From Escherichia coli (GTDB taxonomy: Bacteria; Pseudomonadota; Gammaproteobacteria; Enterobacterales; Enterobacteriaceae): a DNA stretch of 64,000 bases. Position numbers: made by a program. Location: the NCBI RefSeq assembly GCF_003334305.1, contig NZ_QOWS01000002.1; one strand, written 5' to 3'. Within the stretch, counting starts at the first letter, position 1, and every line of letters starts with the position of its first letter. This document shows, in pieces, positions 62,801-64,000 of the stretch.

Positions 62801-64000
62801 CGGTGGTCTGACGGAAGCGCTGGCGCTGGCGACTGAAGCGCGTGCACAAGGTTTCAGTCTGATGCTGGGCTGCATGTTGTGTACCTCTCGTGCCATTAGC
62901 GCCGCTTTACCGCTGGTGCCGCAGGTCAGTTTCGCCGATCTTGACGGACCGACCTGGCTGGCGGTAGATGTGGAACCGGCGCTTCAGTTCACGACGGGCG
63001 AATTGCATCTTTAGGATGCCAGCGCAGCAAGTTTGCCATCGCAAAGAGATATTTTTCGCTGGCTTCGTCGGAGGAGATGGGCGGAAACTCTGCGGTGATG
63101 CAATGCAAGTTGAGATCTGCACACCAACTGCCGAAAGAGCCAGGCGTTTCATAACCGACGCTGGTTACCAGAGGCAATTCAAACGCCTGGGCCAGCCATT
63201 CGCCTAATTCGCTGTGTCTGGGATCTTCAATACAGGCCAGTGGATCGTGGAATGAGACCACCCAGGCAGGTTGAATGCGGTGTATAAGCTGGCACAGCGC
63301 CTGGGTTTCAGGTTCTGAGCCAGGTTTGTCACCTGTCAGTAATACGACATCACGTTCTTCAGCGGCGCTGTTCCAGCGATAAACCGTTTCACCTTCCTTC
63401 CAGTTCGCCGCCGGAAAGTTTCTGTTTAAATCCACACCATTAGCATTGGCCCGTAACCCCAGCTGGCAGCCGTCAGGATTCACACACAGCACCACATGAT
63501 GGCGGCGCAAAGAAGGTGTCAAAGTCCGCAGAGCACAGGAGAGCGTGACGACCGAAGAGTTTTCATCACCGTGAGTGCCAGCCAGAATCAAACCACTTTC
63601 GCGACTGGCTGCAGTGGCCGGAAACCAGATTAACGGCGCGCCCAATAATGAACGTCCGTAATGTTCTGTTCCGGGCGGAAATGCGCCGCGTTCGGCGCGT
63701 GGGCGGTTTACGGTCATGATCGTCTCTGGTTCAGGAAGTATTACAGGCAGTGTTGTGCAAATTTTGCGGATTATCAAATCCTTTTCTTCAACGCTATGTC
63801 ATCGATCTTGTATCACTTTTTTGCCGGAAGTTGTTTGCATTTTATTAGTTGGATAGGGTTTGTGGATTTTTGCTGGCTGACGGGCAAATAAAGTTTGTTT
63901 AATGGTTTGCTTATCTGCCAGTTGATTAATCACATGGCGGGCTATCTGACCGCCAGCACCAAGAATCAGTACATTTTTCATGAAAATTATCCCAGATTAT

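What the first reader, a model, noticed from the sequence alone, without database searches (positions are those of the whole stretch)
62989..63014. Convergent ycjG and mpaA overlap by 26 nt at their 3-prime ends
The two murein-peptide recycling enzymes (L-Ala-D/L-Glu epimerase and murein peptide amidase) are encoded on opposite strands with overlapping stop regions, so each transcript must read into the other gene. This predicts antisense interference or shared termination.
Basis: seen in the sequence. Interest (0 to 1): 0.2.

Follow-up and report, generated by a model that had tools for sequence, protein, structure and literature searches.

The report
Known ycjG/mpaA tail-to-tail gene overlap
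Two E. coli cell-wall-peptide recycling genes on opposite strands do share their last 26 bases, but this is an already annotated, apparently passive result of the genes being packed end to end, with published data showing the transcripts overlap and one is stopped by the Rho factor.

Summary
ycjG (+, 62049-63014, stop TAG) and mpaA (-, 63717-62989, stop TGA) overlap by exactly 26 nt. RefSeq annotates the same overlap, including in K-12 MG1655.

The two genes abut tail-to-tail across Enterobacterales. Of 79 Enterobacteriaceae loci, 74 overlap (10 nt in 43, 26 nt in 25). The 26-nt form follows a 1-nt deletion at the ycjG stop, which shifted mpaA's frame to the next antisense stop.

Within the overlap, sequence variation follows ycjG's codon periodicity and is inverted for mpaA. 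The seven-residue MpaA tail (KDAIRPS) is therefore an unconstrained passenger; its last six residues lie outside the family profile.

There is no intrinsic or bidirectional terminator and no Rfam match. Published data show:
- the pair is listed as a convergent "excludon";
- a bicyclomycin-sensitive Rho termination region lies 391 nt past the ycjG stop, inside antisense mpaA;
- antisense reads are about 20% of sense;
- RNase III duplexes occur within mpaA.

No regulatory consequence has been shown.

Verdict: real, ordinary and already known. Reading into the partner gene is supported, shared termination is not, and interference is untested.

The parts
62049..63014 (+). ycjG CDS (L-Ala-D/L-Glu epimerase, 321 aa), stop TAG at 63012-63014
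   Evidence: ORF and RefSeq annotation. (PDB 1JPD, E = 5e-210, full length). (NF011708, 1-321/321, 676 bits against a cutoff of 343).
62989..63717 (-). mpaA CDS (murein tripeptide amidase, 242 aa), start ATG at 63717, stop TGA at 62991-62989
   Evidence: (PDB 5HXD and 4AXV). (NF007897, residues 1-236 on a 237-position profile, 478 bits against a cutoff of 157).
62989..63014 (.). The 26-nt CDS overlap. Facing codon positions (ycjG, mpaA) are (1,1), (2,3) and (3,2).
   Evidence: In 21 species with the 26-nt form, variation follows the ycjG codon periodicity and is inverted for mpaA.
62992..63012 (-). MpaA codons 236-242 (KDAIRPS): a lineage-specific, unconstrained C-terminal tail read from the antisense of the conserved YcjG C-terminus (FTTGELHL)
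   Evidence: the P235 codon, 63013-63015, straddles the ycjG stop. (the tail varies: KDAIRRS, RDGAARS, KDGVDPS...). (residues 237-242 lie outside the NF007897 match). (the Vibrio homologue aligns only to residue 235; the 5HXD chain ends at D237).
63015..63405 (+). Inferred ycjG 3' UTR, antisense to the 3' half of mpaA, ending at a published Rho termination region (K-12 1390286, equal to window 63405)
   Evidence: (Adams et al. 2021, Supplementary file 2): reads upstream/downstream 47/14 without bicyclomycin and 58/68 with it, Rho score 3.94, p = 7.2e-5. That this RNA comes from ycjG is my inference. Antisense-mpaA read density is 0.42 of ycjG sense density, against about 0.50 expected for a 391-nt extension (arithmetic).
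63355..63485 (+). C-rich, G-poor, weakly structured stretch of the + strand RNA (C:G 1.4-2.1): a candidate rut/Rho loading and release zone
   Evidence: C:G profile. (121 nt folds at only -19.4 kcal/mol, z = 0.18). (the same C>G bubble is present in all 71 species tested, though this may only reflect MpaA coding constraint).
63511..63589 (.). Two p19-captured 21-22-nt RNase III duplexes inside mpaA (63511-63534 and 63565-63589, converted from U00096.2 1388416-39 and 1388470-94)
   Evidence: Huang et al. 2020, Table S3; 1.2-3.7 RPM per strand, so low abundance.
62049..62988 (-). Region that the mpaA transcript must enter (antisense ycjG). C>G almost throughout. The mpaA 3' end is unmapped.
   Evidence: C:G 1.1-2.5. 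(no Term-seq 3' end or Rho region assigned to ycjG). (antisense-ycjG density is about 11% of mpaA sense density).

Best explanation
The 26-nt overlap is a passive by-product of two convergent genes having been packed tail-to-tail with no spacer since early in the Enterobacterales. MpaA's conserved core ends at ...LLRWHP, and the Pro235 codon already straddles the ycjG stop codon. The mpaA frame then runs on through the antisense of YcjG's conserved last codons until the first in-frame stop. That stop is TGA, the reverse complement of T-TCA-CG in ycjG's Phe-Thr codons; the synonymous TTT gives TAA instead.

The likely ancestral Enterobacteriaceae state is a 10-nt overlap (TCAYCTNTGA). In the Escherichia/Salmonella/Citrobacter lineage, a 1-nt deletion at the ycjG stop (CTCTGAGG to CTTTAGG) kept a ycjG stop but shifted mpaA's frame. 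This added five unconstrained residues to MpaA and lengthened the overlap to 26 nt.

Because there is no room for an intrinsic terminator, both mRNAs necessarily carry 3' extensions antisense to the partner gene. The ycjG transcript is ended by Rho about 390 nt downstream, in a C-rich stretch inside antisense mpaA (shown by published bicyclomycin data; the attribution to ycjG is inferred). The mpaA transcript most likely decays or is Rho-terminated within the C-rich antisense of ycjG (inferred). Some sense/antisense duplex forms and is cut by RNase III (published, low level). At the low expression of both genes, this probably has little regulatory effect (inferred).
For: - Anatomy.
- Conservation: 74 of 79 Enterobacteriaceae loci overlap (10 nt x43, 26 nt x25, 4 nt x3, and 19, 33 and 47 nt once each). 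Klebsiella has 10 nt, Pantoea 26 nt, and Serratia a 5-nt gap.
- Single-nt indel at the ycjG stop.
- Stops drift freely. In Citrobacter L020 ycjG has lost its stop, giving a 47-nt overlap. In L012/L017/L019 mpaA has gained an earlier stop, giving 26 nt again, displaced by 21 nt. In Pantoea it is YcjG that is extended.
- Constraint analysis. Entropy in the overlap by ycjG codon position is 0.37/0.07/0.80. By mpaA codon position it is 0.37/0.75/0.07, against 0.19/0.08/0.96 in mpaA outside the overlap. ycjG therefore sets the constraint.
- The last six tail residues (237-242) lie outside the NCBIfam profile match, and the crystallised MpaA chain (5HXD) ends at D237.
- No terminator, structure or Rfam family at the junction.
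- Rho region at window 63405, coinciding with a C>G bubble.
- Five species carry a spacer of 88-331 nt with both genes intact, so the overlap is dispensable.
- Sense RNA of neither gene rises in rnc mutants.
Against: - The zero-spacer arrangement persists across at least three families of Enterobacterales, and ExcludonFinder reports that excludon pairs show higher synteny than other pairs. Some selection for the architecture cannot be excluded.
- The pair is in the published excludome.
- mpaA yields 55-112 RPM of p19-captured dsRNA. The paper reports that 13.5% of genes reach at least 100 RPM in its S data set, so mpaA is towards the upper end.
- The p19 duplexes lie 100-180 nt beyond the Rho peak, so either some read-through or a separate antisense promoter exists.
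- The origin of the antisense RNAs (read-through versus internal promoters, for example the promoter-like site at 62720-62692 on the minus strand) was not resolved.
- The rnc data are single RPM values with no replicates visible to me.
Confidence: 0.72

Rival explanations
1. Functional convergent excludon. The obligatory 3' overlap is maintained by selection so that transcription of one gene damps the other, through RNAP collision and/or RNase III cleavage of the mRNA duplex. This would balance or alternate two consecutive steps of murein-tripeptide breakdown.
For: - Listed as a convergent excludon in at least 50% of 58 RNA-seq samples.
- Antisense reads and p19 duplexes exist.
- The tail-to-tail abutment is conserved across Enterobacteriaceae, Erwiniaceae and Yersiniaceae.
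- Characterised precedent: mscL/arfA.
Against: - The two enzymes act in sequence and are both listed in the regulon of PgrR, which is annotated as a repressor, so mutual exclusion makes little physiological sense.
- Sense levels fall rather than rise in rnc mutants.
- Both genes are weakly expressed (about 50-75 RPM), so collisions should be rare.
- Five species have inserted a terminator-bearing spacer without losing either gene.
- The ExcludonFinder call is coverage-based and is trivially satisfied whenever two CDSs overlap.
- The authors could not validate convergent excludons with p19 data.
Confidence: 0.15
2. Collision-driven bidirectional termination. Converging RNA polymerases stop each other at the junction, giving defined overlapping 3' ends without Rho or a canonical terminator (model of Ju et al. 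2019 and Wang et al. 2022).
For: This class is described for hundreds of E. coli convergent pairs. The junction has no canonical terminator.
Against: - That model needs an RNA hairpin in the overlap to programme pausing. The junction folds no better than shuffled sequence (z = 0.26 and -1.25).
- Termination of the + strand RNA is bicyclomycin-sensitive and lies about 390 nt downstream.
- No Term-seq 3' end is reported at the junction.
- Expression is low.
Confidence: 0.05
3. Noncontiguous operon. mpaA and tpx (same strand) are co-transcribed across antisense ycjG, so the overlap is the entry point of an operon-spanning antisense RNA that controls ycjG.
For: - ExcludonFinder lists mpaA-ycjG-tpx as one of three E. 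coli noncontiguous operons.
- In two assemblies that lack ycjG, mpaA sits 74 nt upstream of tpx on the same strand, with no terminator-like site between them.
Against: - Antisense-ycjG read density (about 10 RPM/kb) is about 11% of mpaA density and under 1% of tpx density (about 1300 RPM/kb), so tpx is transcribed overwhelmingly from its own promoter (arithmetic).
- The antisense-ycjG RNA is C-rich and untranslated, which makes it a good Rho substrate.
- The dsRNA cluster over tpx is attributed by its authors to + strand tyrR/ycjG transcripts, not to mpaA read-through.
- The operon call seems to rest on ycjG appearing in both a convergent and a divergent excludon, which would not demonstrate a continuous transcript (my reading of the table).
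Confidence: 0.05
4. Annotation artefact: one of the two stop codons or reading frames is wrong, and the proteins do not really overlap.
For: The crystallised MpaA chain (5HXD) has 237 residues and lacks the last five. The MpaA family profile match ends at residue 236.
Against: Stops are read directly from unambiguous ORFs with full-length homology. The O157:H7 junction is identical to the window, so 5HXD is a truncated construct and not a shorter allele. Even the shortest natural forms still overlap by 4-10 nt.
Confidence: 0.02

Closest known systems
Convergent (tail-to-tail) overlapping prokaryotic genes formed by stop-codon loss or shift and 3' extension to the next in-frame stop (Fukuda et al. 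2003 and Kingsford et al. 2007, as summarised in PMC3887535)
   Same: Opposite-strand CDSs share their 3' ends. The overlap length equals the distance to the first in-frame stop. The origin is traceable to a single indel at a stop codon, and the extended tail is unconstrained.
   Different: Nothing essential. The unusual points are that the partners are consecutive enzymes of one pathway, and that the abutment is conserved across several families while its length drifts (4, 10, 19, 26, 33 and 47 nt).
Convergent excludons, for example mscL/arfA in E. coli (PMC10070815) and the E. coli excludome (PMC12288877)
   Same: Neighbouring opposite-strand genes whose transcripts overlap at their 3' ends. 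ycjG-mpaA is itself on the published list.
   Different: For mscL/arfA a regulatory effect of the antisense overlap was shown experimentally. For ycjG/mpaA no reciprocal expression or RNase III dependence has been shown, and both genes are listed in the same (PgrR) regulon.
Rho-dependent termination of untranslated 3' or antisense RNA (Adams et al. 2021, PMC7815308; Peters et al. 2012, cited there)
   Same: Bicyclomycin-sensitive read-through on the + strand, antisense to mpaA. The termination region is C-rich and G-poor, poorly structured, and well over 50 nt past the stop codon.
   Different: The rut and termination zone lies inside the partner's coding sequence, because there is no intergenic DNA. 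The exact termination point and the source promoter were not mapped.
Bidirectional intrinsic terminators, and collision-driven bidirectional terminators between convergent genes (Ju et al. 2019; bioRxiv 10.1101/2022.10.23.513370)
   Same: Convergent gene pair with overlapping transcript ends.
   Different: No hairpin flanked by A and T tracts and no stable stem-loop at the junction. By contrast, species that acquired a spacer do carry a textbook bidirectional terminator there (AAAAAACCCGCATGGCCGGAGCAATGCGGGTTTTTTT).
Noncontiguous operons (Saenz-Lahoya et al. 2019, cited in PMC12288877)
   Same: Same-strand genes (mpaA, tpx) flank an opposite-strand gene (ycjG), and the trio is listed as such.
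   Different: Read densities argue that any mpaA-to-tpx transcript is a very minor species. No continuous transcript has been demonstrated.

Membership tests
Convergent overlapping CDS pair | Two protein-coding genes on opposite strands whose 3' ends share nucleotides | tested here: met
   62989-63014 is shared, with stops TAG (+) and TGA (-).
Convergent overlapping CDS pair | Both reading frames are genuine genes up to their ends (not mispredictions) | tested here: met
   full-length family and PDB matches. The YcjG C-terminus FTTGxLHL is conserved in about 80 species. The MpaA tail is real as an ORF but is unconstrained.
Excludon (convergent) | Overlapping transcription of the two neighbouring genes | tested here: met
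   From published data only. ExcludonFinder Table 1; antisense reads of 10.0 and 17.6 RPM against sense reads of 51.2 and 73.9 RPM.
Excludon (convergent) | RNase III processing of the sense/antisense duplex | tested here: inconclusive
   Two low-abundance p19 duplexes within mpaA, and 55-112 RPM of p19 dsRNA for the gene. However, 87% of genes give at least 1 RPM, none of the duplexes shown is at the CDS overlap itself, and the excludon authors could not validate convergent pairs with p19 data.
Excludon (convergent) | Mutually exclusive or reciprocal expression of the two genes | tested here: inconclusive
   Only indirect evidence. Sense RPM of both genes fall together in the rnc mutants. Both genes are listed in the regulon of PgrR, which is annotated as a repressor. 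No perturbation experiment is available.
Bidirectional intrinsic terminator | G+C-rich hairpin flanked by an A-tract and a T-tract between convergent genes | tested here: not met
   (no terminator-like site near the junction). (fold z-scores 0.26 and -1.25). (the sequence has no T or A runs beside a stem).
Rho-dependent terminator (for the ycjG transcript) | Read-through increases when Rho is inhibited by bicyclomycin | tested here: met
   Published data: Rho score 3.94, p = 7.2e-5 at K-12 1390286 (+), equal to window 63405.
Rho-dependent terminator (for the ycjG transcript) | C-rich, G-poor, weakly structured untranslated RNA upstream of or at the site | tested here: met
   (C:G 1.4-2.1 at 63355-63485). 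(-19.4 kcal/mol for 121 nt). The site lies 391 nt past the stop codon.
Rho-dependent terminator (for the mpaA transcript) | Bicyclomycin-sensitive 3' end antisense to ycjG | tested here: not met
   No entry for ycjG in Adams et al. Supplementary files 1-3. The composition is favourable, and absence may reflect low expression.
Noncontiguous operon | A single transcript that joins same-strand genes across an opposite-strand gene | tested here: inconclusive
   Listed in ExcludonFinder Table 1, but read densities make it at most a minor species. There is no long-read evidence for it in the SMRT-Cappable-seq supplements.
L-Ala-D/L-Glu epimerase YcjG (NCBIfam NF011708; enolase superfamily) | Score above the curated cutoff over the full length | tested here: met
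   675.9 bits against a cutoff of 343, 1-321/321. PDB 1JPD.
Murein tripeptide amidase MpaA (NCBIfam NF007897; Peptidase_M14) | Score above the curated cutoff | tested here: met
   478 bits against a cutoff of 157, residues 1-236. PDB 5HXD and 4AXV.

The most novel reading that the evidence does not exclude
The zero-spacer, tail-to-tail packing of mpaA and ycjG is maintained by selection across Enterobacterales. It would force each mRNA to carry a long antisense 3' UTR against its partner, so that Rho activity and RNase III jointly set the ratio of two consecutive enzymes of murein-tripeptide catabolism. This would be a post-transcriptional coupling device between pathway neighbours rather than a mutually exclusive switch.
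Probability: 0.1. Interest if true: 0.4.

Novelty: already known. Interest (0 to 1): 0.12.

Why it matters
It matters little beyond housekeeping. The overlap is in the reference annotation, and the transcriptional overlap is already catalogued.

What this analysis adds is a clean worked example of how convergent overlaps arise and drift. A single-base deletion at one gene's stop codon re-phased the partner gene and gave it a five-residue unconstrained tail.

It also shows that genes without an intergenic spacer depend on Rho acting inside the neighbour's coding sequence. If the architecture did tune two sequential peptidoglycan-recycling enzymes, it would be a modest addition to the excludon literature.

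Tried and rejected
- Intrinsic or bidirectional terminator at the junction: the scan found none near 62989-63014.
- Special RNA structure: four folds around the junction and the Rho region were no better than shuffles. Rfam at E <= 1 gave no match in 61300-64000.
- Shorter O157 allele as the explanation for the 237-aa 5HXD chain: rejected, because the O157:H7 junction is identical to the window.
- Transcript-end data elsewhere. The SMRT-Cappable-seq supplements do not mention either gene. Supplements of Conway 2014, Dar and Sorek 2018 and ExcludonFinder are not held as text. Ju 2019 and Peters 2012 are not held.
- Kingsford 2007 Genome Biology turned out to be the TransTermHP paper, not the overlap-offset model.
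- Deeper phylogeny. Five loci with distant MpaA homologues (44-52% identity) have no adjacent ycjG, and the contigs are short. The pairing could not be traced outside Enterobacterales.
- Conservation of the C>G bubble across 71 species. I do not count it as evidence for a selected rut site, because it may be dictated by MpaA's amino-acid sequence.
- A genome-wide count of convergent overlaps in K-12 was not attempted, because it needs too many annotation calls. Only the 10 convergent pairs in the window were counted.

Full report
**Observation.** The window is E. coli chromosome. Positions 61900-63900 are 100% identical to strain 503025, and window coordinate w corresponds to NZ_CP025892.1 position w + 1299600.
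- ycjG runs 62049-63014 on the + strand and ends GAA TTG CAT CTT TAG.
- mpaA runs 63717-62989 on the - strand and ends CCT AAA GAT GCA ATT CGC CCG TCG TGA.
- The shared stretch is 62989-63014, 26 nt, as reported.
- RefSeq annotates the same overlap in this strain and in K-12 MG1655 (ycjG 1388930..1389895, mpaA 1389870..1390598), so it is not new.
- Both proteins are securely identified. YcjG matches NF011708 over 1-321/321 and PDB 1JPD. MpaA matches NF007897 and PDB 5HXD/4AXV.
- An 86-nt junction segment is 100% identical in 4443 of 5415 complete E. coli genomes, including O157:H7, and 95-99% identical in the rest. K-12 differs from the window at one base within +/-120 nt, outside the overlap.

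**How unusual is it?** Of the 10 convergent CDS pairs annotated in this 64-kb window, two overlap: ymiD/pdeR by 19 nt and ycjG/mpaA by 26 nt. The others are separated by 35-125 nt. This is a small sample, but it shows that such overlaps are not rare.

**Anatomy.** MpaA's conserved core ends at ...LLRWHP. The Pro235 codon (63013-63015) already straddles the ycjG stop (63012-63014).
- Everything after Pro235 (KDAIRPS, 62992-63012) is read from the antisense of YcjG's last codons.
- The three possible minus-strand frames meet their first stops after 4, 26 or 108 nt of overlap, and mpaA uses the 26-nt frame.
- Its stop is the reverse complement of T-TCA-CG in ycjG's Phe-Thr codons. The synonymous TTT gives TAA, which several species use.
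- The NCBIfam MpaA profile is 237 positions long and matches residues 1-236. The Vibrio structure aligns only to residue 235, and the crystallised E. coli chain ends at D237.

**Comparative evidence.** A genome scan returned 80 Enterobacteriaceae loci, of which 79 contain both genes in convergent orientation.
- After correcting for tblastn running through stops, 74 of 79 overlap: 10 nt in 43 (Enterobacter, Lelliottia, Leclercia, Kluyvera, Kosakonia and others; motif TCAYCTNTGA), 26 nt in 25 (Escherichia, Salmonella, Citrobacter), 4 nt in 3, and 19, 33 and 47 nt once each.
- Klebsiella has 10 nt, Pantoea 26 nt (there YcjG is the extended partner), and Serratia a 5-nt gap.
- Five loci have a spacer of 88-331 nt. 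It contains either a textbook bidirectional terminator plus an ORF for a short, mostly hydrophobic peptide (about 40 aa), or a long REP-like hairpin. Both genes are intact in these loci.
- The 10-to-26 change is a 1-nt indel at the ycjG stop: CATCTCTGAGG (Enterobacter/Klebsiella) or CACCTTTAAGG (Lelliottia), against CATCTTT-AGG (E. coli/Salmonella/Citrobacter). ycjG keeps a stop (TGA becomes TAG) but mpaA is re-phased.
- Citrobacter shows further drift. In L020 ycjG has lost its stop, giving 47 nt. In L012/L017/L019 mpaA has gained an earlier stop, restoring 26 nt displaced by 21 nt.
- Six distant MpaA homologues sampled outside this group have no neighbouring ycjG.
- In two assemblies that lack ycjG, mpaA lies 74 nt upstream of tpx on the same strand.

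**Which gene is constrained?** In 21 species with the 26-nt form, per-site entropy in the overlap follows ycjG's codon periodicity (positions 1/2/3: 0.37/0.07/0.80). It is inverted for mpaA (0.37/0.75/0.07), compared with 0.19/0.08/0.96 in mpaA just outside the overlap. The YcjG tail FTTGxLHL is conserved, whereas the MpaA tail is highly variable. The MpaA extension is therefore an unconstrained passenger.

**Transcription and termination.**
- The junction has no terminator-like hairpin or T-tract, no fold better than shuffled sequence (z = 0.26 and -1.25), and no Rfam match.
- ExcludonFinder (NAR 2025, PMC12288877) lists ycjG-mpaA among 165 convergent excludons seen in at least 50% of 58 MG1655 RNA-seq samples. 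It also lists tpx-ycjG as a divergent excludon and mpaA-ycjG-tpx as a "noncontiguous operon". The criterion is coverage-based, and overlapping CDSs satisfy it almost by construction.
- Adams et al. 2021 (PMC7815308), Supplementary file 2, reports a Rho termination region on the + strand at K-12 1390286, antisense to mpaA. Reads upstream/downstream are 47/14 without bicyclomycin and 58/68 with it (Rho score 3.94, p = 7.2e-5). This is window 63405, 391 nt past the ycjG stop.
- That position coincides with the only strong C>G stretch of the RNA (63355-63485, C:G 1.4-2.1), which is weakly structured.
- No 3' end or Rho region is reported antisense to ycjG, although that RNA is C-rich throughout.
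- Huang et al. 2020 (PMC7373196), Table S1c, gives wild-type sense/antisense reads of 51.2/10.0 RPM for ycjG and 73.9/17.6 RPM for mpaA.
- By my arithmetic, antisense-mpaA density is 0.42 of ycjG sense density. About 0.50 is expected if ycjG transcripts extend 391 nt into the 789-nt interval used in that table.
- Antisense-ycjG density is 0.11 of mpaA density and under 1% of tpx density. Any mpaA-to-tpx transcript is therefore minor.
- The same paper lists two low-abundance RNase III duplexes inside mpaA (window 63511-63534 and 63565-63589) and 55-112 RPM of p19-captured dsRNA for mpaA.
- Sense reads of both genes fall rather than rise in the rnc mutants.
- Both genes are listed in the PgrR regulon, and K-12 RefSeq annotates PgrR as a repressor.

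**Interpretation.**
- Shown: the overlap, its annotation, its phylogenetic distribution, the indel that produced the 26-nt form, the lack of constraint on the MpaA tail, and the absence of an intrinsic terminator.
- Shown by others: overlapping transcription, a bicyclomycin-sensitive termination region inside antisense mpaA, and low-level RNase III duplexes.
- Inferred: that the bicyclomycin-sensitive RNA is the ycjG 3' UTR, that mpaA's 3' extension is also Rho-limited, and that the duplex has little regulatory effect.

"Shared termination" is not supported, and "antisense interference" remains an untested possibility. It fits poorly with two co-regulated, sequential enzymes and with natural variants that carry a spacer.

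**Verdict.** This is a real but ordinary and already catalogued feature. Novelty class: already known. Interest is about 0.12. The most novel reading still open is that the spacer-less architecture is selected to couple the two enzymes' expression through Rho and RNase III. I give that about 0.1 probability and moderate interest if true.

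Noticed in passing
window 17767-19862 (overlap at 17877-17895): A second convergent CDS overlap in the window: the small gene ymiD (+) and pdeR (-) share 19 nt. 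ExcludonFinder lists ymiD-pdeR as a convergent excludon and pdeR-ymiD-yciZ as a noncontiguous operon. Two of its three E. coli 'noncontiguous operons' therefore lie in this 64-kb window.
   Followed up: partly
window 63678-63698 (- strand), mpaA codons 7-13: Adams et al. Term-seq maps a fairly abundant RNA 3' end (27317 reads) 39 nt inside the mpaA ORF (K-12 1390559, equal to window 63678). It lies directly after a hairpin, GCGCCG-AACG-CGGCGC, followed by AUUU. Possible explanations are premature termination or attenuation of the ycjY-ymjDC-mpaA transcript, or a 5'-derived small RNA. It is unexplained.
   Followed up: partly
window 61424-61930 (tpx) and 61381-62048: p19 dsRNA cluster S-116 covers the whole tpx CDS. 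Its authors attribute it to + strand RNA from tyrR read-through and/or the ycjG 5' UTR. Term-seq places the dominant tpx 3' end (114165 reads) at K-12 1388306, equal to window 61425, which is within tpx's own stop codon. That position is odd for a terminator and may reflect processing of the duplex.
   Followed up: no
L054 3727-4038, L056 3730-4013, L060 3727-4029, L061 3727-4057; L057 3727-3814: In five Enterobacteriaceae the mpaA/ycjG junction has been split by an insertion. Four carry an ORF for a short, mostly hydrophobic peptide (about 40 aa, MIEWEDESV...VVLVLIVVAGLYFA), three of them together with a clear bidirectional intrinsic terminator. The fifth has only an 88-nt REP-like hairpin. 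The small ORF was not searched against any database.
   Followed up: partly
L092 and L093, 2501-3807: Two assemblies (GCA_000406285.1 and GCA_900095885.1; I believe these are Dickeya, from memory) lack ycjG altogether. In them mpaA lies 74 nt upstream of tpx on the same strand, with no terminator-like site between the two. This suggests either deletion of ycjG or an ancestral mpaA-tpx unit into which ycjG was inserted.
   Followed up: partly
L012, L017, L019, L020 (Citrobacter), about 3683-3729: Stop-codon swapping. In L020 ycjG has lost its TAG (now CAG), giving a 47-nt overlap. In L012/L017/L019 the ycjG stop is also lost (AAG), and the same changes create an earlier TGA in mpaA. The overlap is again 26 nt, but displaced by 21 nt.
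   Followed up: yes
window 43337-45015: In this strain's RefSeq record, ycjM (glucosylglycerate phosphorylase) is annotated as a frameshifted pseudogene.
   Followed up: no
window 63844-63981 and K-12 1390680-1390933: Upstream of mpaA lies a remnant of an NAD-dependent dehydratase / SDR gene. It is annotated as the small ORFs ymjC and ymjD in K-12 and as a partial pseudogene here. Some E. coli strains have about 665 nt more DNA here and an intact 'SDR family oxidoreductase'.
   Followed up: no
H13, NZ_AP018488.1 1782004-1782089 (E. coli O157:H7 PV15-279): In this O157:H7 genome, the gene in the ycjG position is annotated only as 'enolase C-terminal domain-like protein'. ycjG may therefore be truncated or disrupted in that lineage, although the junction is identical.
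   Followed up: no
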